Assembly (NCBI GenBank): GCA_018816445.1
Contig: JAHIVO010000061.1
Location: forward strand, 305-64,304
Source of the DNA: Patescibacteria group bacterium
GTDB lineage: Bacteria > Patescibacteriota > Patescibacteriia > UBA10025 > JAHIVO01
Reading direction: 5' to 3'
Length of the DNA: 64,000 nucleotides
The notes beneath the pieces were generated by a model that saw only the letters and a program-made list of their open reading frames with translations, was not told the DNA's origin and made no database searches. Positions 10,880-51,529 of the stretch are shown piece after piece. Position numbers and translations under genes: made by a program. Numbering within the stretch: the stretch's first letter is position 1; every line of letters starts with the position of its first letter.

Positions 10880-11134
10880 TTCAGCGGGTAGATAAGTTAA
10901 CGGTAGTTTAGGTTCGCCCAATCATCCGATTGGGCGCCCCGTCGTATGACGGGGCAAGCCCTCCCCCTAGAGTTCGTCAGGTAGTTAAATTGTATAATAT
11001 TTTGGTTCGCCGTGAACCACTAAAGGGTTCACGGCGCCATGTACCCTTGAGTGGTACATGGCGATCCCAGCCCCCAGAGTTTAGCAGGCTTGTCCCGTAG
11101 GAGCGTCAGCGACTTACGGGATTCGAATCCTGCT

Positions 11135-11446
11135 CCCCGAGCCAATTGCCGAAAGTGACAACTTCTGTGGATAAGTCATAAAAGCCTTTAAATATCGGGT
11201 GAAAGTTGTACCCACTAGTTTTCTGTTTCGCAACTAAAATCTCCCCACCCAAGTAGGATTCGAATTTCTCATTCTTTTTAGCCTAAAATTCTTCCTTGTC
11301 CATCAGCAGTTTGAAGAGGTTTATAAGGTTTTCAGCCATGAGCCAGGCTTCGTCATCCGATATTTCTTCCCCATATTGCTTTTTGTAGATTTCCTTGAAT
11401 TTATCTATGTGATGTTGTTCAAGAGGCATTGATATCACCCCCTCAC
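11135..11446. repeat. Direct repeat copy 1 (~312 bp, ~90% identical to 15443-15756), encodes a 48-aa ORF
   Basis: Hand alignment of the two copies. They bracket the DGR-containing modules. Confidence 0.8.
11283..11429 (-). CDS. Conserved 48-aa protein (MPLEQHHIDKFKEIYKKQYGEEISDDEAWLMAENLINLFKLLMDKEEF)
   Basis: Strong RBS GAGGGGGTGATATCA before the ATG. The two copies differ at 12 nt but only 1 aa, which indicates purifying selection. Below the 60-aa track cutoff. Confidence 0.6.
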   Translation of the reverse strand: MPLEQHHIDKFKEIYKKQYGEEISDDEAWLMAENLINLFKLLMDKEEF

Positions 11447-11529
11447 TTATGCATGATTAATTGTTACTTCCAGCAATTGACAATATCCCGTCAGCTGTCA
11501 GAATTAAGGTATAATTACATAAAATTTTA

Positions 11530-11925
11530 GTGATCAAAATGAGCAAAAAGAACGTCGTCACATTGATTATTATACTTATATTTGGGCTAACTTGGGGTAT
11601 GAGTAGTATTTTTTATATCAACGGTTTTTGTGAAGACACGCATTTAAAAACCAACGAGACATTTACAGAGACACCCACTGATATTAGTCGTCCATGTGCG
11701 TATACAATGCCAGGGTCAATCTTGGCGTTTCCTGCCTGGCTGACTGCGCGATTTATTACGCCTGACGGCATTATTGTCTATAACGGTCCAAATAACGATA
11801 CTGACAATCCCGTTTTATATATCCTCTCCGGGTTAATTGGTATGCTCGTTGCAGGGATTGTGTGGCTGATATTATACGCACTGTTACTTCGTAAGACGCC
11901 GAAAGCGCAATCAAATGCGACGTAG
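11530..11925 (+). CDS. Hypothetical membrane protein
   Basis: 131-aa ORF with N- and C-terminal hydrophobic helices. Confidence 0.4.
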   Translation: MIKMSKKNVVTLIIILIFGLTWGMSSIFYINGFCEDTHLKTNETFTETPTDISRPCAYTMPGSILAFPAWLTARFITPDGIIVYNGPNNDTDNPVLYILSGLIGMLVAGIVWLILYALLLRKTPKAQSNAT

Positions 11926-12370
11926 CATTAATAGTAAAATTATGGAAAACCAACAACCTCAGCGGCCAACACTCAAGTCGGAAATACCTAAGAAGTGGTT
12001 TTATAGATATTTTGGATTAATTTTTATTTTGTTTGGATTTATTTATTACTTAATACTTCCATTTATTTTTGTTTTACTTGACCCCTCACCTGATAGGTAT
12101 CATTGCCCGTCGGAATTTACTGAATTTTCAGAATATATTTATACACCTCCAATTTCGTTGATTATTTTAATTATTCTTTTTATCGTCACTTTAATAATTA
12201 CCATACTGAGATATTTACCAAAATATAAAAATAACTCCGATATAATTTTTATTTATAAAAGAATTAATTTTATTGTATTTATTCTGTTTGTCATTTTTTA
12301 TTTTATAGCAATGCTTATTGTAGTCCCAATGGAATTTTTACCTGCAGAGGGGTGGGTTTCTCCTTGTTAA
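11915..12370 (+). CDS. Hypothetical polytopic membrane protein
   Basis: 151-aa ORF, very hydrophobic, overlaps the upstream ORF by 11 nt. Confidence 0.4.
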   Translation: MRRSINSKIMENQQPQRPTLKSEIPKKWFYRYFGLIFILFGFIYYLILPFIFVLLDPSPDRYHCPSEFTEFSEYIYTPPISLIILIILFIVTLIITILRYLPKYKNNSDIIFIYKRINFIVFILFVIFYFIAMLIVVPMEFLPAEGWVSPC

Positions 12371-12451
12371 TATAAATAACCAAAAATACATCTCATTAAA
12401 TTGGGGGATGTCCTTTCTTCGTTGTACAACTTATTTTTAATTAAGTTGTTA

Positions 12452-12494
12452 CTTCCCGCAAATAGGTTCTAACGTCCTCTACGACCCCGAGCCA
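12452..12494. repeat. Module-boundary motif copy M1 (CTTCCCGCAAA-GGTTCTAACGTCCTCTACGACCCCGAGCCA)
   Basis: Same ~45-nt motif also at 15410-15451, 17093-17138 and 28241-28310. A variant is at 11101-11146. Confidence 0.6.
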
Positions 12495-12610
12495 TCATTT
12501 CACTCCCATAAACATTGACCTTTCTGACATAGGCAAGTAGGACACTCGAACCTTCACTAGAAAAGCCAGTAAATACAGGGATATAAATTATCATCTGTGG
12601 ATCACTGATC

Positions 12611-12639
12611 TTGACAGATTGCCGTATCCATGGTAGCAT
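12611..12639 (+). promoter_or_regulatory. Sigma-70-like promoter TTGACA-N17-TAGCAT upstream of the DGR target gene
   Basis: Perfect -35 and a 4/6 -10 with 17-nt spacing, about 190 nt upstream of the target start codon. Confidence 0.4.
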
Positions 12640-12830
12640 CCATTGTTACTTTCCGCACTTTGTAATCCAAGAGCTAAAATCACGTTACCTCTTCATTTAA
12701 GAGCGGCTCCTTGCTGTAATCTCCGGACAGAGATTTCCAGAGAGCTGTTCTTAAATAACCGAAAGGTATCGCCTGGAAACCACAGTGGTTGACAGGCAGA
12801 TGTTTTTCAAAAACCAAGGAGGATGACGCC

Positions 12831-13448
12831 ATGGCAAAGACCATGACCCCATCTATGACTGATGGCCAGATTGACAAGGTTGTCGAAAACATCACAGCAG
12901 GGTTTCGCAAGAGACTTCGCGATCACAGGGATGAACTATCTTCAGACACAGTTCAAACCGTCCTCGGCCAGAAGGATTTTATTTCTGCCCTGTTCGCCGA
13001 GTTTCGCCAGCGCGTGGAAGCGGTCAGCAACATGATCGTTCGTAAGGTCAAGGTGGATCGCACCAGAACCTCGCAAGAGGCGCTGGACGTGACAGGACGT
13101 AAGCAGTATACCGACGACGATGTTGTGAAGTCCATGCCGAACGGCAAGGGCGATGAAACCGAGGTTATTTTCTTCAAGGTAGGTCGTACAATAAGTGACG
13201 ACGATCTGGAGAAAGAATATGAACTGCGCGGCCTGGTACCGGCTGATCCGTATTCACTCTGTGCCGTAAATGGAAATGATCCGGCGTTTGCCGATGAACA
13301 TCCCAATGGCACCCACTGGAAAGATTCCAACGGAAAATGGTGTTTCGCCTCCTTCGGCCGGTGGATCGACGAGCGCGGGGTGAGCGTCGACCGCGACGGT
13401 CGTGACTGGGCTGACTGCTGTTGGTTTGCCGGTGTCCGCAAGAATTAG
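12831..13448 (+). CDS. DGR target (variable) protein; C-terminal ligand-binding-type domain carries the VR
   Basis: AGGAGG RBS 8 nt before ATG 12831. C-terminus ...FGRWIDERGVSVDRDGRDWADCCWFAGVRKN is encoded by the VR. Confidence 0.75.
   Translation: MAKTMTPSMTDGQIDKVVENITAGFRKRLRDHRDELSSDTVQTVLGQKDFISALFAEFRQRVEAVSNMIVRKVKVDRTRTSQEALDVTGRKQYTDDDVVKSMPNGKGDETEVIFFKVGRTISDDDLEKEYELRGLVPADPYSLCAVNGNDPAFADEHPNGTHWKDSNGKWCFASFGRWIDERGVSVDRDGRDWADCCWFAGVRKN
13340..13441 (+). repeat. DGR variable repeat (VR)
   Basis: 102-nt homolog of TR 13778-13879. The 20 differences are all at TR adenines; every other position is identical. Confidence 0.85.
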
Positions 13449-13498
13449 GCACTTGGTCGCTTGAACGCATGGCACTTGATTGGTGCCCTTGGATACTA

Positions 13499-13528
13499 CA
13501 CTCTGCATGAGCTTGCTCATGCAGAGTG
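13499..13528 (+). terminator. Perfect 13-bp hairpin (CACTCTGCATGAG-CTTG-CTCATGCAGAGTG) + T-run, 58 nt downstream of VR
   Basis: Read directly. Candidate target-gene terminator and/or the DGR VR-flanking hairpin used in homing. Confidence 0.55.
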
Positions 13529-13777
13529 ATTTTTATCTGACAACGTGATATAATTTTATTTGGAGAGTAAGCGATTCAGCTTGCGGGCACGCCTGCAGGC
13601 GGCTGAAATCCGGATCATTGGGAAAGCCGGAATGCCTGTGGTTATGGCGACAGGCAGCGCGCTCCTTGATTCAATACCAACAAAGATACTTGGTGCAATA
13701 TGCTGGCGGAGCTTTTCTCCCGAATAAAATACAGCCCGGAGAGAATTCAACGGGCAGTGGTACGGAAGGCATGTTGC

Positions 13778-13879
13778 ATAATTCGCCAACTTCAACCGGT
13801 GGAACGACGAGCGCAAGGTGAACGTCAACCGCAACGATAATGACTGGAATGACAACTGTTGGTTTGCCGGTGTCCGCAA
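13778..13879 (+). repeat. DGR template repeat (TR), noncoding, rich in AAC/AAT codons in the VR frame
   Basis: In the VR frame TR reads FNRWNDERKVNVNRNDNDWNDNCWFAGVRN. 20 of its 30 adenines are substituted in VR. Confidence 0.85.
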
Positions 13880-13901
13880 CTATCTTTTTTGGAGCAATCC
13901 G

Positions 13902-14309
13902 CTATTTTGGCGGATTGTTTTTCATCAGTTGTTTTCGCCACCCGCCCAGCATTTTTCCAACCTCTACCAATGGAGGCGTGAGTTGGCTATATTTTCTGGT
14001 ATCCAGAACTTTCATTTCCCAGGCGATCTGCAGGAAAAATTTTAGGGCATCAAGCTTGGTTGAAGCACGCTCCACTACAGAGAGCTTCTTTTCCCTGGGT
14101 GAGTATCCGGCCAGAAGAATTAGTTCCAGAGCATCATAAAACAGCAGGTCAATCTTAGACCCGAGCGTAAAGCGGGACAGCCGCGGCAGGTTCGTCAAAT
14201 TCGCGTGCCATAACCTATACCCTGCCGCCAGTTTCTGTATAATGGGAATATCGACCGACAAATCCCTGGGGGGGGTAATCTTATTAATATGAAAACGCTT
14301 TTGACTCAT
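13902..14309 (-). CDS. avd: Avd-like accessory variability determinant (four-helix-bundle protein)
   Basis: LLAGYSPREKK (compare NIAEGYGR), FFLQIAWEMKVL and LVEVGKMLGGWRKQL resemble Avd / 23S-rRNA-IVS proteins. On the strand opposite to TR and RT, overlapping the RT start by 21 nt. Confidence 0.6.
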   Translation of the reverse strand: MSQKRFHINKITPPRDLSVDIPIIQKLAAGYRLWHANLTNLPRLSRFTLGSKIDLLFYDALELILLAGYSPREKKLSVVERASTKLDALKFFLQIAWEMKVLDTRKYSQLTPPLVEVGKMLGGWRKQLMKNNPPK

Positions 14310-15284
14310 GGGTTTAAGGATATTGTATCGATAGACAATCTATTGTCAGCCTGGCGTGAGTTTGTCCCGGGCAAAGCCGGGAAAAAGGATGTCAGGGAAT
14401 TTTACCGCCATCTGGCTGATAATATTATATCACTCCACGAGGAGCTTGAAAACGACACTTACCGACATGGCGGGTATATTCACTTCAGGATCTCCGATCC
14501 CAAGCCTAGGGATATTCACAAGGCAACCATCCGGGACAGGCTGGTGCACCATGCCATCTATCGCGTACTCTACCCCTTTTTAAGTGATACATTCATCGCC
14601 GATTCATATTCCTGCCAGTTGGGAAAGGGAACGCATCGGGCTATCAGAAGATTCCGGACTTTCGCCGGTCAGGTAAGCAGAAACAATACCCAAACCTGCT
14701 GGATATTAAAATGCGATATCAGGAAATTCTTTGCCAGCATTGACCATGCTATATTGATGAATATGCTAAGTGAGTATATTACTGACCAAAGAATTAATAC
14801 TTTATTGCGCGAGGTTATCCAGAGTTTCTGCTGGCAACCGGGCAAAGGTTTGCCGCTTGGCAATCTGACATCCCAGTTGTTCGTTAATGTGTATATGAAT
14901 GAGTTTGACCAATTCATGAAACATACATTAAAAGTCAAGTATTATCTGCGTTATGCTGATGATTTTGTTGTAATGTCTGATAACAGATCGTGGTTAAAAG
15001 GACTCATACCGATTATCAGTAATTTTCTGACGGTCAAACTCAAACTCACGCTTCATCCGAGCAAGGTATTTATTAAAACACTGGCTTCAGGAGTTGATTT
15101 TCTGGGCTGGGTGCATTTTCCGTATCATCAGGTACTCCGCACTTCCTCCAAAAGGCGCATGTTAAACAGGATTACTGAAAACCCGGAAACATCTACTATG
15201 CAGTCATATTTGGGTCTACTACAACATGGCAATGCATACAAGCTGGCAGAGCAGGTGATTAATCAGACCTATCTATGGAAGTAA
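14289..15284 (+). CDS. DGR reverse transcriptase
   Basis: RT motifs 1-7, YADDFVV (YxDD). The DGR-specific LGNLTSQLFVNVY ([I/L]GxxxSQ) replaces the retroviral QGxxxSP. N-terminal NLLSAWREF...VHHAIYRVL is typical of DGR RTs. Confidence 0.85.
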   Translation: MKTLLTHGFKDIVSIDNLLSAWREFVPGKAGKKDVREFYRHLADNIISLHEELENDTYRHGGYIHFRISDPKPRDIHKATIRDRLVHHAIYRVLYPFLSDTFIADSYSCQLGKGTHRAIRRFRTFAGQVSRNNTQTCWILKCDIRKFFASIDHAILMNMLSEYITDQRINTLLREVIQSFCWQPGKGLPLGNLTSQLFVNVYMNEFDQFMKHTLKVKYYLRYADDFVVMSDNRSWLKGLIPIISNFLTVKLKLTLHPSKVFIKTLASGVDFLGWVHFPYHQVLRTSSKRRMLNRITENPETSTMQSYLGLLQHGNAYKLAEQVINQTYLWK

Positions 15285-15409
15285 CCTTATCCACATTTAT
15301 TGTTGGAATACGCAATTGCAAACAAAGTGATTGAAGTATACAGTAAGATTGGGGCACGAGAATATTTCTTAATTTATTTAAAACAGTTTTCAGGAGAATT
15401 AAGTTGTCG

Positions 15410-15451
15410 CTTCTCGCAAAAAAGTTCTAACGTCCTCTACGACCCCGAGCC
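15410..15451. repeat. Module-boundary motif copy M2
   Basis: CTTCTCGCAAAAAGTTCTAACGTCCTCTACGACCCCGAGCCA, immediately followed by direct-repeat copy 2. Confidence 0.6.
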
Positions 15452-15756
15452 AATTGCCTAGAACGACAACTTACTGTGGATAAGTCATATTAACCTTTAA
15501 ATATCGGGTGAAAGTTGTACCCAAGAGTTTTCTATTTACGCAATTAAAATCTCCCCACCCAGGTAGGATTCGAATTTCTCTATCTTTTTAGTCTAAAATT
15601 CTTCCTTATCCATCAGCAGTTTGAAAAGATTTATCAAGTTATTGGCCATGAGCCAGGCTTCGTCGTCCGATATTTCTTCTCCATATTGTTTTTTGTAGAT
15701 TTCCTTAAATTTATCTATGTGATGTTGTTCAAGAGGCATTGGTTATCACCCCCTTT
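15443..15756. repeat. Direct repeat copy 2 (~312 bp)
   Basis: Aligned to 11135-11446 by hand. Confidence 0.8.
15593..15739 (-). CDS. Conserved 48-aa protein, copy 2 (differs at one residue, E33N)
   Basis: Same RBS and frame as copy 1. 10 of the 12 nucleotide differences are synonymous. Confidence 0.6.
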   Translation of the reverse strand: MPLEQHHIDKFKEIYKKQYGEEISDDEAWLMANNLINLFKLLMDKEEF

Positions 15757-15823
15757 GTATAAAAAAACAAAAAACTACTGTAGGTATTGCTTACAGTAGC
15801 CAATGTAAAAAGTTTAACTTAGT

Positions 15824-16153
15824 TTAAATATTTTTAAGCTCTTCAAAATTAACCTCTGGAATTTCAGTGTTTAGTTTTCGTTTGCTGTTCTTTTGTTTTT
15901 CAACAATTGCAAACATCTGATTTACTTCAGGAGATATGTTTTGATAGCTCACTTTTTTAAAGTTCCAGAATTTGTTATGCTGGTCTTTAAGTTGTAGTAA
16001 TTCATGCGCGGCCGAGCGAGAAATAAAAGAGATATTTGAGAAATCCAAAACTACACGACGGTCTGTAGTTTCCTGAATCCGCTGTTTTATAATGCTAATT
16101 ACATCCCTCGATGAGAGCATTGGGGATATATCTTTTAATGCAATATTATTCAT
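15824..16153 (-). CDS. STAS-like / DUF4325-type anti-sigma-factor-antagonist-like protein
   Basis: RVVLDFSNISFISRSAAHELL has a STAS/DUF4325-like signature. Lies downstream of the GHKL gene in the same operon. Confidence 0.45.
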   Translation of the reverse strand: MNNIALKDISPMLSSRDVISIIKQRIQETTDRRVVLDFSNISFISRSAAHELLQLKDQHNKFWNFKKVSYQNISPEVNQMFAIVEKQKNSKRKLNTEIPEVNFEELKNI

Positions 16154-16194
16154 ATATAATCATTATATCACAGTTATATTGTGGATATCCAATT

Positions 16195-17076
16195 TTACTC
16201 TGTATAGGGTGTTATGTCAATAGGACCTTTGGGATAAGGTATTTGATAGGAGATAATAACTCCTTGCCAGTAGAAATTTGGGAGCTGTACAATTACTTGT
16301 TTACCTTGTGAACCTAAAAAGACGCTATTACCAGTGAGAAGTAAAAATTGGCCACCTAGTGCTTTCCTAACTACCAACTGTGATGTACTTAATCCGTAAC
16401 CTCTTCCTTCCATTTTTTTGGTTGACTGTCCTTGAAATGCACGTCGAATTGCTTCATCGTCACCAACTTCTTGTTTCTGAACATCAAAGTATCTTCCAGC
16501 AATGCCCCTGCCGGTGTCAATTATACAAATATCTAATAACTTCTTCTTCGGATAATGTTGTGCAAATATCCAACCATAATTCTTTTGGCTATGTTCGAAT
16601 ATGTTGCCGACTAATTCGCTAATAGGGTACAAGATTGCATTGCTTGCACCCGCTACATTACCTGTTAGTTTTTCGATAATTCTATAAAAATTACTTTCCA
16701 GACCTTGTCTACTTGTTTCGTCTGCTTTCTTAAGAAAACCAATTGGAATTGTATAGCTTAATAAGCTCAATTGATTGGCATTCTCTATTCCATTAGGAAA
16801 AGAAATATCTCTTAAATATCTCTTTACTTGTTCTGATTGAGGTTGTTGATAATTGCTCTGATATTCTCTAACGTGGGCACACACAGTAAGTGTTAATAAA
16901 GGGTGCATCCAAGTACAGGACGATAATCGAAAATTAACTGGATTTTGTTTTATCCCTTTAAAAGTATCATATAGAGCTTTGATTTGATCTTTAAGGTCGT
17001 CAGATTTAGGATTGTTGACCCTTACTTCCTTTAGCATTAATATTTTATTATAGATTATTTGTATATAGTATACCAT
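16195..17076 (-). CDS. GHKL-family ATPase (histidine-kinase-like ATP-binding domain) with ~140-aa N-terminal extension
   Basis: N-box ELVGNIFEHS, G1 box IDTGRGI, G2 box GRGYGLS. Confidence 0.55.
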   Translation of the reverse strand: MVYYIQIIYNKILMLKEVRVNNPKSDDLKDQIKALYDTFKGIKQNPVNFRLSSCTWMHPLLTLTVCAHVREYQSNYQQPQSEQVKRYLRDISFPNGIENANQLSLLSYTIPIGFLKKADETSRQGLESNFYRIIEKLTGNVAGASNAILYPISELVGNIFEHSQKNYGWIFAQHYPKKKLLDICIIDTGRGIAGRYFDVQKQEVGDDEAIRRAFQGQSTKKMEGRGYGLSTSQLVVRKALGGQFLLLTGNSVFLGSQGKQVIVQLPNFYWQGVIISYQIPYPKGPIDITPYTE

Positions 17077-17092
17077 CTAGTAATTAATCTTT

Positions 17093-17138
17093 TAAGTTGT
17101 CTCTTCCCGCAAAAAAGTTCTAACGTCCTCTACCACCC
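17093..17138. repeat. Module-boundary motif copy M3 with an inserted GC hairpin CACCCAGAGCTGGGTG
   Basis: CTTCCCGCAAAAAAGTTCTAACGTCCTCTAC + hairpin. The 3' CCCCGAGCC part is missing. Confidence 0.55.
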
Positions 17139-17290
17139 AGAGCTGGGTGCTTATGCGCAGTGAAAGACGAAATATTGTTTCGTCTTCTTTGGATTGATTT
17201 TAATCCCTTTATGAGGGATAATATAGGCGGGATTACTTGGTTATTATTGAAAATCATGCTGAAGCGAAAAATTAAAATAATCAATAATTT

Positions 17291-18662: not shown

Positions 18663-18740
18663 TCCTTAATTTTTTTTATAATAACAGTGTTACGATATTT
18701 AAATTCGTAATACTTATTAACTATTAAACTATAATAATTT

Positions 18741-21364: not shown

Positions 21365-21394
21365 TATACTTAATTATGGGTATATATTCATAAT
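21365..21394. promoter_or_regulatory. Conserved upstream element (paralog of 6861-6890); a TTGACA hexamer lies at 21343-21348
   Basis: ATATACTTAATTATGGGTATATATTCATAAT versus TATATTTAATTATGGGTATATATTCATAAT. Confidence 0.45.
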
Positions 21395-21485
21395 TGTTGA
21401 TAACTCATTAATTTAGCTAGTTTTGGGTAAATATTCAATATCAAAAAAGTCGAATTTAATAATTAACCAATAAGGAAATAAATAT

Positions 21486-21806: not shown

Positions 21807-21916
21807 GATAGTCCTGTTCCATTAACTCTAAATAATGGGCTAGAGCTTTGAACATTCAACAGGACTATCTTTAGCCCAATTTTTAATCAGTTTATAATAG
21901 TAAATCAAATAAATTT

Positions 21917-22099
21917 ATGACAATAGGAGATCAGGCAGGAGGTGGCCGTGTATTAAGTGGCCGTGGTTTGGGACCGGCCGGTTCAAGTATTTGCGTTTGT
22001 CCGAAGTGTGACTATAAAGAAGCACACAAACGTGGTGTGCCCTGCAATCAGATATCGTGTCCTAAATGTGGAACAAAGATGAGGGGTGAAAATTGCTAG
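21917..22099 (+). CDS. Small Gly-rich N-terminus + 7-Cys zinc-ribbon-like protein
   Basis: GGGRVLSGRGLGPAG followed by CVCPKC...CNQISCPKC...C. Present only in cassette 2. Confidence 0.4.
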   Translation: MTIGDQAGGGRVLSGRGLGPAGSSICVCPKCDYKEAHKRGVPCNQISCPKCGTKMRGENC

Positions 22100-22108
22100 G
22101 GTATACAT

Positions 22109-22384
22109 ATGCCACGACCCCAATTATATCGGAGAATTAAATTTAGCCCACGAGTCACTTATTTTAAGCCGCAGGGTATTCCTTTGCGTGCTCTTGAAGT
22201 TGTAGAGTTAAGTAAAGAAGAAGCTGAAGCCTTGCGTTTGAAGAACGTGACCGGACTTGATCAGCATGAGTGCGCTAAAAAAATGCATACTTCGCAAAGC
22301 ACGTTTCAGCGTATTTTATCGTCAGCCTATCGTAAAATCAGCTATGCCCTGATAAAAGGTAAGGCCATTTCAATAGAGAAATAA
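22109..22384 (+). CDS. DUF134/UPF0251-family predicted DNA-binding protein (paralog of 7440-7715)
   Basis: About 70% identical to the 7440 product by eye. Confidence 0.7.
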   Translation: MPRPQLYRRIKFSPRVTYFKPQGIPLRALEVVELSKEEAEALRLKNVTGLDQHECAKKMHTSQSTFQRILSSAYRKISYALIKGKAISIEK

Positions 22385-22495
22385 AATATCATAAAAAGTA
22401 ATTAATTTTTTATATAAACCGTCTCATCTTCATTGTTGACAATTTTTTATTATGGTGATAATTTTAAAGTTAAGTATACTTAACTTATAATCACT

Positions 22496-22900
22496 ATGGT
22501 TAAACAAAACCAGGAAGATTATTTGCGAGCAATCTATAACTTTTGGGAACACCATGATAGAGTTATTCGTTCCGTGGATATTGCCGGGTATTTGAATATT
22601 TCCAAAGCGTCAGTTTCTCAAATGTTAAAAAAGCTGGCTCAACAGAGGTACGTAAAAATTAAGCCTTATTCATATGTATTATTTACCACTAAAGGTTTAG
22701 CATTGGCCAAAAGATTGATGTACAAACATAGAATTATTGAAGTTTTTTTAAGGGAGATACTGGGTATTAATAAAAAGAATGTTCATGAGGAGGCAAACAG
22801 ACTCGAACACGGTTTTTCTGATGAGACAATCAGGAAATTAGCAAAATTTATAAATAATCCGAAATATTGCCCAGGTGGTAAAAAAATTCCAAAATTATAA
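22496..22900 (+). CDS. DtxR/MntR-family metal-dependent transcriptional repressor
   Basis: EDYLRAIY, ISKASVSQMLKKL HTH and a dimerisation helix. Confidence 0.75.
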   Translation: MVKQNQEDYLRAIYNFWEHHDRVIRSVDIAGYLNISKASVSQMLKKLAQQRYVKIKPYSYVLFTTKGLALAKRLMYKHRIIEVFLREILGINKKNVHEEANRLEHGFSDETIRKLAKFINNPKYCPGGKKIPKL

Positions 22901-22906
22901 AAAATT

Positions 22907-23134
22907 ATGAAACAAGCTTTAATTACTTTTAGGGAGGGCGACAAGGTAAAAATAGAATGTGTGCATTGCGGGAAGAATTTTAGGAAGCGGTTGATTGATT
23001 TAGGTTTGTTTGATGGCGCAGAAATAGAGATTATTAAAAATGATAAATACGGTCCCCTGATTCTTAAAATTTTTAATTCCCAAATTGCCTTGGGTCGAGG
23101 CCAGGCTGCTAAAATATATGGAAATAAAATCTAA
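22907..23134 (+). CDS. feoA: FeoA
   Basis: 75-aa SH3-like protein. [12 protein letters not shown]...[11 protein letters not shown] is a FeoA pattern. Confidence 0.7.
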
Positions 23135-25175
23135 TCTAATTATTGGTTTAGCCGGCAATCCTAATGTTGGTAAATCTACCTTGTTTAACACTTTAACCGG
23201 GGCTCATCAGCATGTCGGTAATTGGCCGGGCAAGACCGTAGAGAAGAAGCACGGGGAATTTACTTATTTAGACAAAAAGATTAAGGTCGTTGATTTACCC
23301 GGTTCCTACAGTCTGACTGCCTATACTGAAGAAGAGACAATCACGGCTGATTTTATTTTAGAAGAAAAACCGGATGTAGTGGTGCAGATAATTGATGCAC
23401 AGAATCTGGAAAGGAATTTGTTTCTGACCATCCAATTGATTGAACTGGGTGCTCCTTTAGTTATTGCTTTAAATATGGTTGATTTGGCAATAAATACTGA
23501 TCAGAAAATAAATATAAAAGCACTGTCTGAACTCTTATGCGTACCGGTTGTTGAAATGGATGCCAGAAGTAAAAAACATCTTGGTAGTTTTATGAAAGCT
23601 GTTTTTGAAAAAGCTTTTTCCGATAAAAAAGCGGATAAAATAAAATTAACGTACGGCACTGATATTAATGATGAGTTGGGAAAAATTAGGCAGTTTTTAC
23701 GAGAAAAAGAAAATAATGTTACTGAAGAGGAAATAAATTGGACAGCAATAAAGTTATTAGAAGGTGATTACCGGGCTGAGCAAAAAGCCAGCAATAAAGC
23801 CCATTATTCGGAACTTAAATTGTTAGTAAAAAGAAGCATTGCGCGTTTGCATAAAATTTGTAATAAGGATATTAATACAATTTTAGCTCGTGCTCGCTAT
23901 GGTTTTATCAAAGGTTTAAGCGAGGATGTTATTGGTCGACATACAATTTCCGGGCATAAAAAGTTGGCAGACAAATTTGATCACATCGTTACAAATAAGT
24001 ATTTAGGTATTCCGTTTTTTGCGATTGTGGCCTGGGTTTTGTTTCAGACGACATTTAAGTTATCAAAACCACTGATGGGCTGGATAGAGTTACTTTTTGA
24101 ATTTCTCGGCGCCAACCTCACTTCTTTAATGGCAACATGGAATGCACCTACCTGGGTAAGCTCATTGTTAGTTGATGGTGTTATTGGCGGAGTGGGCGGT
24201 GTATTGGTATTTGTCCCAATTATTGGTATTTTATTTTTACTAATGGCTTTATTGGAAGATTCCGGATATATGGCGCGAGTGGCTTATGTAATGGATAAAT
24301 TTATGCACCGCATTGGTTTGCATGGCAAAGCTTTCATCCCTCTCATATTGGGTTTTGGATGTAATGTACCTGGCATAATGGCTACACGTACTCTGCCAAC
24401 AAAAAAAGACAGGTTATTGACCATTTTAATTAATCCTTTTATGTCTTGTGGGGCCCGCTTGCCCGTATATATTTTATTTGCCGGTGCTTTTTTCTCTGCA
24501 TATCAGGGCTGGGTAATATTCTCATTATATTTTTTAGGAATTATCGTAGCTATTGTTATGGGATTCCTATTTAAAAAATTCTTATTCAAGAAACTTTCCT
24601 CGCCATTTGTAATTGAATTACCACCATATCGCTGGCCAGCCATTAAGGGTGTATTAATTCACGTTTGGGAGCGGGTTTGGATTTTTATTAAAAAAGCAGG
24701 CACAATAATTTTAGCCTTCTCTATTATAATTTGGTTGTTGGCAAGTGCGCCATTTGGCGTAGATTATGGTTCGCAGGATAGTTTGGCAGGTTCAATCGGC
24801 CAGACAATATCGCCGGTATTCAGGCCGTTGGGTTTTGACAATTGGCAGTCTTCCGTTGCTTTGATGTTCGGTTTTGTAGCAAAAGAAGTCATAGTCAGTA
24901 CCTTTGGCACGCTTTACGGCATTGATGATGTAGAAGATGGCGAGGGAGGCACTTCGTTGAGTAATGCTTTACAGGATAATTTTACGCCTTTGGCTGCATA
25001 CGCGTTTATGATATTTGTTTTATTATATGCTCCATGCTTGGCTGTTTTAGCAGTAGTTAAGCGTGAGACTAATTCTTGGAAATGGCCGTTATTTATGGTT
25101 GGGTATACAACAGCTGTTGCTTGGATTTTTGCCTTTATTGTTTATCAAGGAGGGAATTTATTAAACTTTGGATAG
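23118..25175 (+). CDS. feoB: Ferrous iron transporter FeoB
   Basis: G-domain [17 protein letters not shown]. Gate motifs in the membrane domain. Start taken at ATG 23118. Confidence 0.85.
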
Positions 25176-25176
25176 T

Positions 25177-25323
25177 ATGAATTTATTAGGGATTTTAATT
25201 GTTATATTAATTACCATAGCGTGTTTGGCGTATATTGTTTCTTATATAAAGAAGACATTTAATAAAGTAAATAGTTCGTGCGAGGAGTGTCCCTATTCGG
25301 ACGCTTGCAGTAAGAAGCAATGA
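25177..25323 (+). CDS. FeoB-associated Cys-rich small membrane protein
   Basis: 48 aa: one TM helix plus CEECPYSDAC. Starts 2 nt after the feoB stop. Below the track cutoff. Confidence 0.5.
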   Translation: MNLLGILIVILITIACLAYIVSYIKKTFNKVNSSCEECPYSDACSKKQ

Positions 25324-25397
25324 TTTGGTAAGTAAAATATTATTTTTTAATATTATTATTAATAAAAAAATTGCATCTAATTAGTATGGGATTCTTT

Positions 25398-26543
25398 ATG
25401 AAAAAATATTTATTTATCATTGTTATCGCTTGTTTGTTTGTTGTTCCGCTGTTAGTCAATTCGCAAGAGGTTAATATCGGCGAAGAAGAAGTTCTTAAAG
25501 CTCGTGTCATTGAAGTTATTGAACAAAATATTGTTACTTCAGAGGATGGTTCTTCCGTAATACAACAAAAACTGAAATTAAAAGGTTTATCAGGCAATTG
25601 GGCAGACAAAGAGTTTATTTTTGACGGTACACAGTATGAAGTCATTTCCGCTAGTGCATATAAAATAGGCGATAAAGTAATGGTATCTTACTCTCCGGAT
25701 ATGGAAGGTAATGACATTTTTTACGTTACTGATTATGTCAGGCAAGGTAAGATATATTGGTTAGCCTTGTTGTTTGCGATTGCAGTGATTGCAGTTGGCC
25801 GGCTAAAAGGAGTCAGGGCGTTAGTTGTTTTGGTATTAACCTTTCTGATTATTCTTGGATTTATTATCCCCAGAATTTTAGCTGGCAACAGTCCTTTGTT
25901 TATTAGTATTATTGGGTCATTATTTATTCTGATTTTAGCTATTTACATCACTGAAGGGTTTAAACGTACCTCAACAATTGCTGTTGTTTCAATATTCATT
26001 TCTTTGATTATCACCGGATTTTTATCAGTTTGGTTTACGGCACTGACTAAATTAACTGGCTTTGCGAGCGATGAAGCTATTTATTTAATGGGGCTAAAGG
26101 GCGGAGATATCAATGTTCAGGGTTTGCTTTTAGCCGGTATAATTATCGGCGCGCTTGGTGTTTTGGATGACGTGATTATTTCCCAGGTAACGTTAGTGCG
26201 GGAATTAAAACAGGCAAATCCACATCTGCCAATAAAGCAGTTGTACGGCAAGGCAATGAAGGTCGGCGTTTCCCATATGAGTGCCATGGTAAATACTCTG
26301 TTTTTGGCGTACGCGGGTGCTGCATTGCCATTACTAATATTATTCAGCGTGAAAGAACCGCCGTTTTTAACTTTAGGGCAGGTTTTAAATAATGAGATGA
26401 TTGCCACGGAAATAGTTCGGACAATAACGGGCAGTATTGGTTTGGTATTAGCCATACCGATCGCTACTCTGTTGGCGGTTCATTTTATACGGTTCACTGG
26501 GCATAAAGAGAGTGTGACGAATGAATTATCCACAATGAACTAA
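25398..26543 (+). CDS. YibE/F-family membrane protein
   Basis: Signal-anchor, extracellular domain, then 7-8 TM helices with the YibE/F-like GxxDDVIISQ region. Confidence 0.45.
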   Translation: MKKYLFIIVIACLFVVPLLVNSQEVNIGEEEVLKARVIEVIEQNIVTSEDGSSVIQQKLKLKGLSGNWADKEFIFDGTQYEVISASAYKIGDKVMVSYSPDMEGNDIFYVTDYVRQGKIYWLALLFAIAVIAVGRLKGVRALVVLVLTFLIILGFIIPRILAGNSPLFISIIGSLFILILAIYITEGFKRTSTIAVVSIFISLIITGFLSVWFTALTKLTGFASDEAIYLMGLKGGDINVQGLLLAGIIIGALGVLDDVIISQVTLVRELKQANPHLPIKQLYGKAMKVGVSHMSAMVNTLFLAYAGAALPLLILFSVKEPPFLTLGQVLNNEMIATEIVRTITGSIGLVLAIPIATLLAVHFIRFTGHKESVTNELSTMN

Positions 26544-26588
26544 TTGCAAATCATTTGCAATTATATTCATGCCGTGCTACCATAGGTT

Positions 26589-26975
26589 ATGCCTATGGAT
26601 TTTGTGGATAACATCAAAAGAAACGATTACAAGCTGACACAGCCCCGGCTTAAGATACTACGCTGTCTTCAGAATAATCAGAAGCCGCAGACTCCTCAGG
26701 AAATTCATTTGTCATGCCGAAAACAAGGAATTGATTTAGTAACGGTATATCGCACGTTGGAGCTATTTCAACGTATTGGAATAGTTCATCGTGAGGAAAT
26801 TTTTAGAGAAACAAGATATTACCTTGACCAGAATGAACACCATCACATTGCCTGCCGAAAATGCCTTACGATTAAGTGTATCCCGTGTAAAATGGAGTTT
26901 TCTAAGATCAAAGGTTTTTCCAATATTCAGCATTTCCTAACGCTGACCGGCATATGCAAACAATGCAGTAGTTAA
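26589..26975 (+). CDS. Fur-family metalloregulator
   Basis: Winged-helix N-terminus (TVYRTLELFQRIGIVHRE), HHH, and CxxC pairs. Confidence 0.7.
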   Translation: MPMDFVDNIKRNDYKLTQPRLKILRCLQNNQKPQTPQEIHLSCRKQGIDLVTVYRTLELFQRIGIVHREEIFRETRYYLDQNEHHHIACRKCLTIKCIPCKMEFSKIKGFSNIQHFLTLTGICKQCSS

Positions 26976-27031
26976 TTCAGTCGTTTAGTTATAAAATAAT
27001 CTTTATTAATTATAAAATGTATTAGTGTTAT

Positions 27032-27781
27032 ATGACAGAAGTTTGGTTATATACAATTTTAAGTGTTTTTATCGTTAGTCTCGTTTCTCTGATAGGTATT
27101 TTGACGATTTCAGTAAATATGGAGAAGTTAAAAAAGATTCTTCTGTTTTTAGTTAGTTTTGCGGCGGGTTCATTACTTGGTGGTGCTTTTATTCATTTAT
27201 TACCGGAAGCGTTCGGGGAGTTAGAAGATACAGCACTTTTACCCTTTTATATCCTTCTAGGGATTGTTCTATTTTTTATTTTGGAGAAAATATTGAATTG
27301 GCGCCACTGTCATATACCAACGTCAGATAAACATCCTCATCCTTTAGGTATTAATAATATTATTGGTGACGGATTCCATAATTTTATCGATGGTATGATT
27401 ATTGCCGCTAGTTATATGGTAAGTGTACCGTTGGGTATTGCTACTACAATCGCCGTTTTGTTGCATGAAATTCCGCAGGAAATAGGTGATTTTGGCATTC
27501 TTGTTTACGCTGGATACACAAAAAAGAAAGCATTATTTTTTAATTATCTTTCCGCTTTTACGGCTGTTGTGGGTGCGGTTTTAACTCTTATTATCGGTTC
27601 ATCAATTACTGGCATGAAAGATTTTTTAATTCCCTTTACCATTGGCGGTTTTATTTATATTGCCACGGCGGATTTGATCCCTGAATTAAAGAAAGAAACT
27701 GATCTTGGTAAATCAGCCTTACAGCTCGTAGCCTTTTTATTTGGGATAGGGATTATGACACTCTTACTATTATTAGAATAG
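27032..27781 (+). CDS. zupT: ZIP-family zinc transporter (ZupT-like)
   Basis: HEIPQEIGDFGIL and H-rich motifs, 8 TM helices. Confidence 0.75.
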   Translation: MTEVWLYTILSVFIVSLVSLIGILTISVNMEKLKKILLFLVSFAAGSLLGGAFIHLLPEAFGELEDTALLPFYILLGIVLFFILEKILNWRHCHIPTSDKHPHPLGINNIIGDGFHNFIDGMIIAASYMVSVPLGIATTIAVLLHEIPQEIGDFGILVYAGYTKKKALFFNYLSAFTAVVGAVLTLIIGSSITGMKDFLIPFTIGGFIYIATADLIPELKKETDLGKSALQLVAFLFGIGIMTLLLLLE

Positions 27782-28030
27782 TTAATATTACGCTGAAGTA
27801 AGCCAAATGAGTCTCAGCCAGAGGCTGATCCGCCTTTGGCGGAAATAATGAGACACCCCTATGTACTGTCTTACTTGTTCCGTTACGAGCGCGAGTTTAC
27901 GGGATTTGTCTCATTTCCTGCCCCGTTGAATGACGGGGTCGCTTCTTGAAAGACTCCCTAAAAGTTTTTGAAAAAAGCAAGCCTAATCTCGGCTCTTATT
28001 AAAAGGGATTAGCTGCTCTGTAAACAACTA

Positions 28031-28219
28031 AGGACAATACTGTTGCCATTGAGGACTCGGCATCCGGCGTTAAGTCAGCAAAAGCTGCGGGTATTAAATG
28101 TATCGCTGTCCTTCATACTACTCATAAGGATCGCCTGTGGGAAGCTGATAAGATTGTAAATTCGATCATGGGCATTGATAGCTCGACAATCCAACAAGTA
28201 TTCCCTCATTTGCAATGAA
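28031..28219 (+). pseudogene. C-terminal fragment of a HAD-family hydrolase (beta-phosphoglucomutase-like)
   Basis: Translates to KDNTVAIEDSASGVKSAKAAGIKCIAVLHTTHKDRLWEADKIV..., with no N-terminal half or start codon. Confidence 0.5.
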
Positions 28220-28240
28220 TCACAGACAGTTTATTGTCCC

Positions 28241-28310
28241 TTTCCGCAAAAAGGTTCTAACATCCTCTACCCAGCCTCTCGCGAGAGGCTGGGTCTACAA
28301 CCCCGAGCTA
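28241..28310. repeat. Module-boundary motif copy M4 with inserted GC hairpin CCCAGCCTCTCGCGAGAGGCTGGG flanked by duplicated TCTAC
   Basis: CTTTCCGCAAAAAGGTTCTAACATCCTCTAC-[hairpin]-TCTACAACCCCGAGCTA. Confidence 0.55.
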
Positions 28311-51523: not shown

Positions 51524-51529
51524 GCGTCA

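What the first reader, a model, noticed from the sequence alone, without database searches (positions are those of the whole stretch)
11101..28310. Recurring ~45-nt motif TTAAGTTGT-N-CTTCCCGCAAAAA-GGTTCTAACGTCCTCTAC-(GA)CCCCGAGCC delimits successive gene modules
Copies lie at 12452-12494 (before the DGR), 15410-15451 (after the RT, before repeat copy 2), 17093-17138 (after the STAS/GHKL pair) and 28241-28310 (after a HAD pseudogene fragment). A variant at 11101-11146 shares only the CCCCGAGCCAATTGCC end and abuts repeat copy 1.
The motif does not fold as a terminator and its spacing is irregular, so it is not CRISPR. It therefore looks like a recombination or attachment site, or a cassette-boundary element, in an integron-like or modular accessory region.
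Basis: seen in the sequence. Interest (0 to 1): 0.6.

Follow-up and report, generated by a model that had tools for sequence, protein, structure and literature searches.

The report
Serine-recombinase scars bounding tRNA-linked islands
The repeated motif is the leftover last 17 codons of a serine-recombinase (integrase) gene joined to the tail of a tRNA-Asn gene. It marks where four mobile gene islands were inserted one after another, and it points to a widespread, apparently undescribed integrase family that targets tRNA genes and has its own C-terminus swapped by integration.

Summary
Four same-strand copies of a 54-nt motif (12441-12494, 15399-15452, 17092-17145, 28220-28310) lie at gene-module boundaries, against 0.05 expected by chance. 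The motif is not an RNA, terminator, CRISPR repeat or integron attC.

Read on the minus strand, each copy is an open frame, W-L-G-V-VEDVRT-F/Y-LRE-x-TT-stop. This is the C-terminal end of a large serine recombinase (LSR) gene. The last 7-10 nt (CCCCGAGCCA or CCCAGAG) copy the 3' end of tRNA-Asn.

In related genomes the same sequence ends intact LSR genes. Most homologues break off exactly at this point and continue as antisense tRNA (…RGAYRESNPD…). So attP lies inside the LSR gene, and integration into a tRNA 3' end swaps the enzyme's C-terminus.

A complete 15.4-kb element in another Patescibacteria genome (tRNA-His, LSR, DGR, restriction-modification genes, then the motif) confirms the model.

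In the window, 11081-11146 is the attL-type junction. The four copies are internal or right-end junctions of four tandem elements, and all four have lost their LSR. They are fossil scars, increasingly decayed with distance from the tRNA.

"Integron-like" is not. The window locus is ordinary decay; the LSR family behind it is the interesting part.

The parts
10735..10808 (+). Intact tRNA-Asn(GTT). Its acceptor 3' end is TCCCAGA-G and it encodes no CCA. It is the likely living target gene of the island array.
   Evidence: ARAGORN; Rfam tRNA 64.7 bits. Its 3' end CCCAGAG recurs in the tail of junction J3.
10809..11080 (+). Pile of partial tRNA-Asn-like pieces with 3' parts ending CCCTAGAG, CCCTAGAG and CCCCAGAG, between the intact tRNA and J0.
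   Evidence: Rfam tRNA 28.9 bits at 10817-10875, with a GTT anticodon arm; by eye. Origin not resolved.
11081..11146 (+). J0, the attL-type junction. It holds a tRNA-Asn-like T-arm (GCAGG..TTCGAATCCTGC, interrupted by a 33-nt hairpin), then acceptor 3' strand TCCCCGA-G-CCA.
   Evidence: Antisense reading gives ..EVVTFGNWLG-EQDSNPVSR*. This is the same form as integrated LSRs P0049/P0068 (..LRGQDSNLEPTP), which overlap tRNA-Asn.
11147..11431 (-). P' side of element 1. It holds the last ~10 LSR codons before the junction (EVVTFGNW), plus a probable decayed LSR remnant that includes a 48-aa ORF (11283-11429).
   Evidence: 91% repeat of 15453-15741. One-frame blastx similarity to LSR residues ~301-402, weak (E 0.007 against a 240-protein set). 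No Pfam hit.
11432..12440 (+). Cargo of element 1: two small membrane-protein genes (11539-11925, 11915-12370).
   Evidence: the ORF listing; no Pfam family.
12441..12494 (-). J1: LSR C-terminal remnant WLGVVEDVRTYLREVTT* plus the tRNA-end core CCCCGAGCCA.
   Evidence: blastx to LSR C-termini, e.g. P0135 WRGIVEDVRTFCVEAT.
12495..15398 (+). Element 2: a diversity-generating retroelement. Target gene 12789-13448, TR ~13782-13879, bAvd 13902-14309 (-), RT 14289-15284.
   Evidence: Pfam bAvd 8e-12 and RVT_1 5e-23. VR/TR repeat D5.
15399..15452 (-). J2: LSR C-terminal remnant WLGVVEDVRTFLREATT* plus core. It continues rightwards into the P' remnant (..VVVLGN).
   Evidence: blastx P0179 MSNWLGAVEDVRTFV, P0151 NWRGIVKDVRTFCLEAREEFS. 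GTTCTA/TAGAAC inverted repeat centred on the core.
15453..17091 (-). Element 3: second copy of the P'/48-aa ORF block (15453-15741), a STAS-like gene (15824-16153) and a GHKL ATPase (16195-17076).
   Evidence: repeat. Pfam STAS/DUF4325 (weak) and HATPase_c 2e-8.
17092..17145 (-). J3: LSR C-terminal remnant QLWVVEDVRTFLREETT*. The core variant CCCAGAG matches the 3' end of the intact tRNA-Asn.
17146..28219 (.). Element 4, an 11-kb metal-homeostasis island: NikR, CbiM, deoxyhypusine-synthase-like, DtxR-type repressor, FeoAB, YibE/F, Fur, ZIP and a HAD C-terminal fragment.
   Evidence: Pfam. That it is an inserted element is inferred from the flanking junctions only.
28220..28310 (-). J4, the oldest and most decayed junction: *LGV-VEDVRTFLRKGTINCL*. 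The W codon is mutated (CCA to CTA), the original stop is lost, and a 22-nt palindrome is inserted at 28271-28292.
   Evidence: 66% identity to J1.

Best explanation
The motif is not a free-standing DNA or RNA element. It is the last 17 codons plus stop of a large serine recombinase (LSR) gene, read on the minus strand, joined to a 7-10-nt copy of the 3' end of tRNA-Asn.

In this LSR family the attP site lies inside the recombinase's own coding sequence, 13-35 codons before its stop. The codons at the crossover (W/R-x-G) are the antisense of the tRNA's acceptor end.

Recombination with the 3' end of a tRNA gene (attB) has three consequences:
(i) It regenerates the tRNA.
(ii) It leaves the body of the LSR gene next to the tRNA, reading into it. 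The enzyme therefore loses its VEDVRT tail and acquires either an antisense-tRNA tail or an immediate stop.
(iii) It strands the C-terminal coding fragment plus the tRNA-end core at the far end of the element (attR).

Repeated insertion at the tRNA-proximal site produces tandem elements separated by P-core-P' junctions.

The window holds such an array downstream of tRNA-Asn. J0 (11081-11146) is the attL-type junction. J1-J3 are internal junctions and J4 is the distal end. Together they delimit four elements: small membrane proteins; a DGR; a STAS/GHKL pair; and an 11-kb metal island. All four have lost their LSR genes, so the copies are immobile scars.

Shown: homology to the LSR C-terminus, the coding signal, the tRNA match, and the two alternative C-terminal forms together with one complete element in relatives.

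Inferred: that the window's four modules each arrived by this route, the order of arrival, and that the 17-mer doubles as the recombinase's P-half binding site.
For: 1. Coding. The reverse complement of the 17-mer reads V-E-D-V-R-T. All four window copies are open from W to a stop, exactly 54 nt. In 43 Patescibacteria copies, third-codon-position entropy is 1.00 bit against 0.49 and 0.42 bits at positions 1 and 2, outside the searched 17-mer. Synonymous series such as GTG/GTT/GTA and AGG/AGA/CGA are seen.

2. LSR identity. The motif is the C-terminus of full-length recombinases of 504-559 aa in L084, L045, L070, L090, L098 and L071. These carry PF00239 + PF07508 + PF13408.

3. Two forms.
- Of 120 homologues of the L084 LSR, 5 end ..G(A/D)V-VEDVRT... 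At least 54 end in antisense-tRNA peptides (YRESNPD.., RDSNSRPLGPQPRALPTELRPP, QDSNLEPTP), and many others stop right after ..RG(A/G/D).
- P0086 and P0093 are 96.5% identical over residues 1-521 and then diverge after SSSLG. P0033 and P0050 are 92.7% identical over 1-562 and then diverge after VILDTVWGA.

4. Complete element in contig CAWITU010000002.1. tRNA-His is overlapped by the 3' end of LSR P0031, and the cargo includes bAvd+RT (a DGR) and R-M genes. The motif lies 15.4 kb away. The shared core is GGCACCCCT. Joining P from attR to P' from attL rebuilds ..VILRNERGAVVEDVRTIFERKNDATIYIP...

5. tRNA linkage. The motif lies 0.5-5 kb downstream of, and on the same strand as, a tRNA in 44 cases: His 28, Trp 7, Gly 3, Asn 2, others 4. 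The tail after the motif co-varies with that tRNA's 3' end.

6. Window target. LSRs with ..RGQDSNL.. tails overlap tRNA-Asn. J0 antisense reads NWLG-EQDSNPVSR*. J3's tail CCCAGAG equals the 3' end of the intact tRNA-Asn.

7. Decay gradient with distance from the tRNA: J2 91%, J3 82%, J4 66% identity to J1. J4 also has a mutated W codon and a palindrome insertion.
Against: - No LSR body exists in the 64-kb window (tblastn).
- No full-length LSR with the window's exact tail (NWLGVVEDVRTFLRE) was found. The link for this subfamily therefore rests on 17-20 residues of similarity to LSR C-termini, plus the tRNA-Asn logic.
- The LSR-like nature of the P' flanks of J1, J3 and J4 is weak.
- Canonical LSRs recombine attP only with attB, so it is unexplained how tandem P-core-P' arrays arise.
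- The array is identical in four samples, so there is no direct evidence that these modules were ever mobile in this lineage.
- Element 4 consists of housekeeping-looking metal genes.
- The pile of tRNA-Asn fragments at 10809-11080 is not explained by LSR insertion.
Confidence: 0.85

Rival explanations
1. The copies are still-functional attachment sites of LSR-less gene cassettes. A recombinase encoded elsewhere in the genome would shuffle them in trans, giving an integron-like platform whose 'attI' is the tRNA 3' end.
For: - Arrays of one-gene, LSR-less cassettes sit downstream of tRNA-His in L005/L076: 8 copies in 16 kb, each with a conserved P-core-P' junction and a common P' boundary.
- L135 has an intact attP-form LSR distal to an LSR-less cassette.
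- Insertion between the tRNA and a resident LSR would restore that LSR's native tail.
Against: In the window:
- J3 and J4 are decayed, with the W codon lost and a palindrome insertion.
- P' flanks differ between junctions.
- No LSR is present in 64 kb.
- The array is invariant in four samples.

In general, LSRs are not known to recombine attP-like sites with each other.
Confidence: 0.12
2. Integron attC sites or CALIN-type cassette array recombined by a tyrosine IntI.
For: Repeats at boundaries of gene modules, all in one orientation.
Against: - No conserved hairpin or bulged palindrome: alifold energy -0.1 kcal/mol, 0 compensatory pairs.
- The sequence is explained as LSR coding sequence.
- Modules are multi-gene and on both strands.
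- The end of the repeat matches a tRNA, not an R'/R'' box.
Confidence: 0.02
3. A cis-acting RNA or DNA signal of the host, such as a promoter, terminator, sRNA or tRNA-like processing signal, placed between operons.
For: - Intergenic position.
- The tail looks like a tRNA acceptor end.
- Small hairpins are nearby: 12426-12449, and 17134-17149 plus 17165-17185.
Against: - No Rfam family, even at E<=1 on relatives.
- No consensus fold.
- Variation follows codon positions of the opposite strand.
- The unit starts and ends exactly at a stop codon and a W codon.
Confidence: 0.03
4. Ordinary tyrosine-integrase tRNA islands (Islander type), with the repeats being displaced tRNA 3' fragments.
For: - Tandem islands with partial tRNA repeats are the norm for Y-integrases (PMC4383910; bioRxiv 10.1101/2020.12.28.424599).
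- The tRNA-Asn fragments at 10809-11080 and the partial tRNA-Leu at 52388-52445 look like that type.
Against: - Only 7-10 nt of tRNA are repeated at J1-J4.
- The adjoining 45 nt are serine-recombinase coding sequence.
- In relatives, the recombinase abutting the tRNA is an LSR.
Confidence: 0.03

Closest known systems
Large serine recombinase (serine integrase) integrative elements: phiC31, Bxb1, A118, TP901-1, TnpX/CcrAB type
   Same: Same enzyme architecture: Resolvase + Recombinase + zinc-ribbon domains. The core identity between attL and attR is short. The recombinase gene sits at the end of the element next to its att site.
   Different: - The target is the 3' end of tRNA genes. A 2020 survey called serine-integrase use of t(m)RNA genes previously unreported and in need of proof, with 14 of 297 predicted cases (PMC7192596).
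- attP lies inside the recombinase ORF, so integration replaces its C-terminus.
- No record among 50,697 phages or 72,556 plasmids covers at least 80% of the protein, and identity is at most 30%.
- Only the catalytic domain matches PDB entries.
SSV-type archaeal tyrosine integrases, whose int gene is partitioned by integration into a tRNA gene
   Same: attP lies inside the integrase gene. Integration into a tRNA gene splits the gene and leaves int fragments flanking the element, and such fragments persist as genomic scars (own knowledge; reviewed in PMC8371274, which was listed but not read).
   Different: The enzyme superfamily differs (tyrosine versus serine) and so does the domain of life. 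SSV splits off an N-terminal piece and inactivates the gene. Here only the last 13-35 residues are exchanged, and the catalytic and DNA-binding domains stay intact.
Integration-dependent immunity of mycobacteriophages (BPs/Brujita type)
   Same: attP lies within the 3' end of a phage gene, so integration at a tRNA gene changes that protein's C-terminus and thereby its behaviour (own knowledge, not checked here).
   Different: There the remodelled protein is the repressor and the integrase is a tyrosine recombinase. Here the remodelled protein is the serine recombinase itself, and a functional consequence is only hypothesised.
Tandem tRNA-linked islands / tycheposons of Prochlorococcus
   Same: Successive integrations at one tRNA push older elements outward. 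Partial tRNA repeats and degraded integrase fragments mark old junctions, and the cargo is adaptive, including metal homeostasis (bioRxiv 10.1101/2020.12.28.424599).
   Different: 910 of 937 of those elements use tyrosine recombinases. The repeat there is a ~40-nt partial tRNA rather than recombinase coding sequence plus 7-10 nt of tRNA.
Integron gene-cassette arrays (attC)
   Same: Directly repeated recombination sites separate accessory genes. Some relatives have one-gene cassettes without a recombinase (L005/L076).
   Different: There is no folded attC and no IntI. The repeat is coding sequence of a serine recombinase, and the platform is a tRNA gene.

Membership tests
LSR att junction (attL / attR / attP-like) of a tRNA-targeting serine-integrase element | The sequence on one side of the junction is homologous to the C-terminal coding end of LSR genes. 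| tested here: met
   The window copies translate to W-L-G-V-VEDVRTFLRE... They match LSR C-termini such as NWRGIVKDVRTFCLEA and WLGAVEDVRTFV. The same 17-mer ends full-length LSRs.
LSR att junction (attL / attR / attP-like) of a tRNA-targeting serine-integrase element | A short core is shared with the 3' end of the target tRNA gene found upstream on the same strand. | tested here: met
   CCCCGAGCCA is shared with 11135-11144, and CCCAGAG with tRNA-Asn at 10801. In 44 related cases the tail co-varies with the upstream tRNA.
LSR att junction (attL / attR / attP-like) of a tRNA-targeting serine-integrase element | An attL-type partner in which the recombinase frame runs into the antisense tRNA. 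| tested here: met
   J0 antisense reads ..GNWLG-EQDSNPVSR*. At least 54 of 120 homologues have such tails. Direct overlap with a tRNA gene is seen in L118, L119, L120 and L133; L134 is cut off at the contig end and shows only a tRNA-Asn-like 3' end.
LSR att junction (attL / attR / attP-like) of a tRNA-targeting serine-integrase element | A recombinase gene is present in the element. | tested here: not met
   tblastn with two family LSRs finds nothing in the window. Only possible decayed remnants remain. The sites are therefore scars of such elements, not parts of an intact one.
LSR att junction (attL / attR / attP-like) of a tRNA-targeting serine-integrase element | Recombination activity: excision circles, empty sites, or an in vitro reaction. 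| not testable with these tools
   Four samples carry the same array. No reads or assays are available.
Integron attC / cassette array | An imperfect palindrome that folds as a bulged hairpin with R''-L''/L'-R' boxes. | tested here: not met
   Consensus fold energy -0.1 kcal/mol, with 5 invariant pairs and no covariation.
Integron attC / cassette array | An adjacent intI (tyrosine recombinase) with attI. | tested here: inconclusive
   No such gene appears among the ORFs scanned in 8-31 kb. The whole window was not scanned against Pfam.
CRISPR array | Regularly spaced identical repeats with short spacers. | tested here: not met
   Spacings are 2958, 1693 and 11137 nt.
Known RNA family / intrinsic terminator | A match to an Rfam covariance model, or a GC hairpin plus U-tract. 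| tested here: not met
   No Rfam hit in the window or in 4 related loci at E<=1. No fold.
Tyrosine-integrase tRNA island (Islander type) | The displaced fragment is a long (typically tens of nt) copy of the tRNA 3' part, and a Y-Int gene lies next to the tRNA. | tested here: not met
   Only 7-10 nt of tRNA are repeated at J1-J4. In relatives the gene abutting the tRNA is an LSR.

The most novel reading that the evidence does not exclude
The family behind these scars may be a distinct kind of serine-integrase system. Because attP sits inside the recombinase gene, the integration state is written into the protein. The free (attP) form carries a conserved C-terminal peptide (VEDVRTxFERxNDATIYIP in Patescibacteria). 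The integrated form loses it.

This could act as a built-in directionality or stability switch. Insertion of a further cassette between the tRNA and a resident LSR would restore the tail. That would make the tRNA end an integron-like acquisition platform that accumulates LSR-less cassettes carrying DGRs, defence genes and metal genes in ultra-small Patescibacteria genomes.
Probability: 0.3. Interest if true: 0.8.

Novelty: new variant of a known kind. Interest (0 to 1): 0.6.

Why it matters
For this window, the result turns four puzzling repeats into a readable history. The DGR, the STAS/GHKL pair and an 11-kb metal-uptake island are successive insertions at tRNA-Asn, and their boundaries are known to the nucleotide.

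More broadly, the trail leads to a large recombinase family: 755 and 5053 homologues at E<=1e-10 in two searches. It spans Patescibacteria, Acidobacteriota, Abditibacteriota and others, and it targets the 3' ends of tRNA genes (His, Trp, Asn, Gly, Gln, Asp, Lys). This behaviour was described in 2020 as unreported for serine integrases.

These enzymes appear to be a main route by which genome-reduced Patescibacteria acquire DGRs, restriction-modification and defence genes.

The exchange of the enzyme's own C-terminus on integration is a testable candidate for a new way of controlling serine-integrase directionality. That is a practical concern, since these enzymes are genome-engineering tools. 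tRNA-end attB sites are also short, conserved and predictable.

Tried and rejected
- RNA hypotheses. An Rfam gathering scan of the window, an E-value scan of four related loci and RNAalifold on 43 copies gave nothing.
- tRNA-like minihelix reading of the + strand. Dropped once the codon pattern appeared.
- Viral contigs. The 4 matches to the 17-mer are all chance hits inside unrelated ORFs, so the elements are not typical phages.
- Metagenome scan with a window-specific pattern. Only another subfamily was found (WQCIVEDVRTVLRG..).
- Protein search with a 63-aa reconstructed window LSR end.
- Strain comparison via exact-protein look-ups of RlmN, the VTT-domain protein and the DGR RT. All contigs show the same array. 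One Logan contig (L129) differs to the left of 27813, but its breakpoint is a REP-like hairpin repeat, not the motif. This may be an assembly join, so it is inconclusive.
- The 48-aa ORF duplicated at 11283-11429 and 15593-15739. It has no Pfam family and no homology to the small ORFs upstream of LSRs in L118, L120 or L071. There is only weak in-frame similarity to an internal LSR segment.
- Dyad symmetry of the putative attP. Only one 6-nt pair (GTTCTA/TAGAAC) is centred on the core, and only in J2. It was not seen consistently in relatives, so it is not used as evidence.
- attR of the L120 element. Not within 10 kb.

Full report
**Observation**

The 18-nt core GGTTCTAACGTCCTCTAC occurs four times in the 64-kb window with at most one mismatch, always on the + strand. 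Shuffles expect 0.05. The repeat finder groups the copies into one 56-nt family with identities of 100, 91, 82 and 66%. The flanks to the left are unrelated.

The 'variant' at 11101-11146 shares only CCCCGAGCCAATTGCC. The ~290 nt to its right recur at 91% identity after copy 2.

**Not an RNA or an attC**

No Rfam family matches the copies in the window. None matches equivalent copies in four related loci, even at E<=1.

These are overwhelmingly Patescibacteria/CPR (Saccharibacteria, Paceibacterota and others) and share about 70 nt of conserved sequence. RNAalifold on 43 of them gave -0.1 kcal/mol, five invariant pairs and no covariation.

**It is coding sequence on the other strand**

The reverse complement reads V-E-D-V-R-T. 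In the relatives the frame continues as ..(L/W/R)G(A/D)V-VEDVRTVFER(L/R)NDATIYIP.. and then stops.

Variation is codon-like. Outside the searched 17-mer, column entropy is 0.49, 0.42 and 1.00 bits at codon positions 1, 2 and 3. Synonymous series such as GTG/GTT/GTA and AGG/AGA/CGA are seen.

Each of the three undisrupted window copies (J1-J3) is exactly one open frame from a W (or Q) codon to a TAA stop; J4 is the same frame in disrupted form:
- J1 12441-12494: WLGVVEDVRTYLREVTT*
- J2 15399-15452: WLGVVEDVRTFLREATT*
- J3 17092-17145: QLWVVEDVRTFLREETT*
- J4 28220-28310: *LGV|VEDVRTFLRKGTINCL*, interrupted by a 22-nt palindrome with a TCTAC duplication

**Whose coding sequence**

In L084 (Paceibacterota), L045 (Abditibacterium), L070/L090/L098 (Acidobacteriota) and L071 (Gracilibacteria), the motif is the 3' end of a 504-559-aa ORF with an ..IYCRVSTEEQ.. 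N-terminus.

Database searches with two of these proteins found 755 and 5053 homologues at E<=1e-10. All carry Resolvase + Recombinase (+ Zn_ribbon_recom) domains, so they are large serine recombinases.

The window peptides fit the family's C-terminal consensus N-W-(R/L)-G-(I/V)-V-(E/K/Q)-D-V-R-T-F. Examples are P0151 NWRGIVKDVRTFCLEAREEFS and P0179 MSNWLGAVEDVRTFV.

**Two C-terminal forms reveal the mechanism**

Among the 120 best homologues of the CPR enzyme, only 5 keep the VEDVRT tail. At least 54 continue after the same ..RG(A/G/D) point with peptides such as YRESNPDRELHKLQC, RDSNSRPLGPQPRALPTELRPP or QDSNLEPTP. These are antisense translations of tRNA T-arms. Many others stop immediately.

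Near-identical pairs diverge at a fixed residue. P0086 and P0093 are 96.5% identical over residues 1-521 and then differ. P0033 and P0050 are 92.7% identical over 1-562 and then differ.

Genomic look-ups show the LSR 3' end overlapping tRNA-His in L118, L119 and L120, and tRNA-Asn in L133. L134 is cut off at the contig end, so no tRNA gene is called there, but the sequence under its LSR's 3' end has a tRNA-Asn-like 3' end.

**One complete element**

On contig CAWITU010000002.1 the layout is as follows:
- tRNA-His is followed by LSR P0031 on the opposite strand.
- The cargo includes a DGR (bAvd + RT) and restriction-modification genes.
- 15.4 kb from the tRNA lies the motif found in L035.

attL reads ..CCCTGTAGGCACCCCTTTCGTTTC.. 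and attR reads ..CTCTACGACGGCACCCCTAAAGAG.., so the shared core is GGCACCCCT. Joining the P side of attR to the P' side of attL rebuilds an uninterrupted ..VILRNERGAVVEDVRTIFERKNDATIYIP.. reading frame.

attP therefore lies inside the recombinase gene. Integration at the tRNA 3' end swaps the last 13-35 residues and strands the old tail at the far end of the element.

**tRNA linkage is general**

In 44 motif occurrences a tRNA lies 0.5-5 kb upstream on the same strand: His 28, Trp 7, Gly 3, Asn 2, and Gln, Lys, Glu and Asp 1 each. In most of them the nucleotides after the motif match that tRNA's own 3' end. Examples are GGCACCC or GTCGCCC for His, CCCTGCCA for Trp, GCCCCAGCCAG for Gln and ACGGAGC for Asn. 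Where the tRNA gene encodes CCA, the recombinase has a TGG (W) codon there.

**Reading the window**

An intact tRNA-Asn(GTT) sits at 10735-10808.

At 11081-11146 a tRNA-Asn-like T-arm and acceptor end (..TTCGAATCCTGCTCCCCGAGCCA) is followed by the last codons of an LSR. On the minus strand this reads ..EVVTFGNWLG-EQDSNPVSR*, the integrated-type end. It resembles the tRNA-Asn-targeting LSRs, which end ..LRGQDSNLEPTP. This is junction J0 (attL type).

J1, J2 and J3 are P-core-P' junctions, and J4 is the distal end. The tails are CCCCGAGCC(A/T) in J1, J2 and J4. In J3 the tail is CCCAGAG, which is identical to the end of the intact tRNA-Asn.

The junctions delimit four elements:
- E1: two small membrane proteins.
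- E2: a DGR (bAvd 8e-12, RVT_1 5e-23).
- E3: a STAS-like gene plus a GHKL ATPase.
- E4: an 11-kb metal-homeostasis island with NikR, CbiM, DtxR-type repressor, FeoAB, Fur and ZIP (and the gene tables).

The P' sides of E1 and E3 share a 290-nt block. This block reads in one frame through a 48-aa ORF and weakly resembles an internal LSR segment, so it is probably a collapsed recombinase gene.

No recombinase body survives in the window.

Identity to J1 falls with distance from the tRNA (91, 82, 66%), and J4 is mutated and interrupted. This fits newer elements inserting next to the tRNA and pushing older ones outward (inference).

The same array occurs unchanged in four samples. In this lineage the copies are fossils.

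**What remains uncertain**

- No full-length LSR with the window's own tail was found.
- It is unexplained how an LSR, which canonically recombines only attP with attB, builds tandem P-core-P' arrays. Arrays are nevertheless common: the window, L002, L005/L076 (8 copies), L023, L063, L069 and L135.
- The idea that the 17-mer doubles as the P half-site is only inferred from its position, 3-20 nt from the core.
- The distal tail (FERxNDATIYIP) varies at third codon positions. This argues that it is conserved as protein rather than as DNA, and therefore that the tail lost on integration has a function. What that function might be is speculation.

**Comparison with the known**

The enzymes are bona fide LSRs but distant from studied ones. 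Only the catalytic domain matches PDB entries. No phage or plasmid record covers at least 80% of the protein, and identity is at most 30%.

A 2020 survey stated that serine integrases were not known to target tRNA genes and found 14 of 297 predicted cases needing proof (PMC7192596). My literature searches found no description of this family or of its gene-embedded attP. The library is incomplete, so prior description cannot be excluded.

Conceptual relatives are:
- SSV-type partitioned tyrosine integrases.
- Integration-dependent immunity of mycobacteriophages. These first two rest on my own knowledge.
- Tandem tRNA islands / tycheposons.

**Verdict**

The window locus itself is an ordinary set of decayed insertion scars. 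The recombinase family and its C-terminus-swapping architecture, which explain those scars, are a new variant of a known kind and deserve follow-up.

Noticed in passing
window 10590-11146: Dense nest of tRNA-Asn-like pieces around the one intact tRNA-Asn.
- 5' halves TCTGGGG (10607) and TCTAGGG (10673) appear to pair with 3' ends CCCCAGAG (11072) and CCCTAGAG (10872, 10965).
- A second GTT anticodon arm lies at ~10835, scoring 28.9 bits against Rfam tRNA.
- T-loops are interrupted by GC hairpins.
- The 551-nt stretch folds at -247 kcal/mol.
It could be serial decay of duplicated tRNA genes, or a genuinely nested or split tRNA arrangement. This is unresolved.
   Followed up: partly
window 10723-10733 / 10811-10821 and 52548-52560 / 52446-52458: The tRNA genes are embedded in long perfect inverted repeats: CCCCGCCACAA..TTGTGGCGGGG around tRNA-Asn, and GCGCCCGCCTGCC..GGCAGGCGGGCGC around tRNA-Leu(CAA). 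These look like processing stems, which is unusual for bacterial tRNAs.
   Followed up: no
window 51447-52545 (minus strand): Second tRNA-linked rearrangement zone.
- tRNA-Leu(CAA) is followed directly by a partial copy running from the anticodon arm to the 3' end (52388-52445).
- tRNA-Met plus its 73-nt upstream block is duplicated 605 nt apart.
- An 80-aa GIY-YIG nuclease gene (51685-51927, Pfam 1e-16) lies between the two copies.
   Followed up: partly
window 10692-10725, 18077-18110, 27821-27854: REP-like palindromic repeat (..GGCGGATCCGCC(T/A)TTGGCGG..). Short-read contigs from other samples end or change partner exactly there (L128, L129, L132). L129 joins it to a different left flank carrying tRNAs and a GIY-YIG gene.
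   Followed up: partly
window 28271-28292: 22-nt perfect palindrome CCAGCCTCTCGCGAGAGGCTGG, inserted into junction J4 with a 5-nt TCTAC duplication. It behaves like a miniature mobile hairpin. Similar GC hairpins interrupt the tRNA-like pieces at 10900-11120.
   Followed up: no
window 12495-15398; L118 4829-6441: DGRs travel as cargo of these serine-recombinase elements. Both the window's element 2 and the complete 15.4-kb tRNA-His element in another Patescibacteria genome carry bAvd + RT. Other family elements carry R-M, Mrr, TerB_N, a 449-aa RT, SLFN/AlbA_2, TIR and AbiEii genes (L118, L133-L135).
   Followed up: partly
L005 4240-6860 and L076 (contig CAVYBO010000001.1, 32-48 kb): Eight motif copies lie in 16 kb downstream of tRNA-His. 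They separate mostly single genes with no recombinase. Several junctions share a further ~75-nt right-hand block ending ..ATGGGTCTAAAGAGAATCGGACTTTT, which gives a common cassette boundary.
   Followed up: partly
window 6856-7066 vs 21360-21557; 17241-17287 vs 18032-18078: Two further repeat pairs.
- A 42-nt AT-rich block plus the start of paralogous DUF5320-type glycine-rich genes.
- A 47-nt AT-rich element (87% identity) upstream of 17291 and of nikR (18243), possibly a shared operator or promoter.
   Followed up: no
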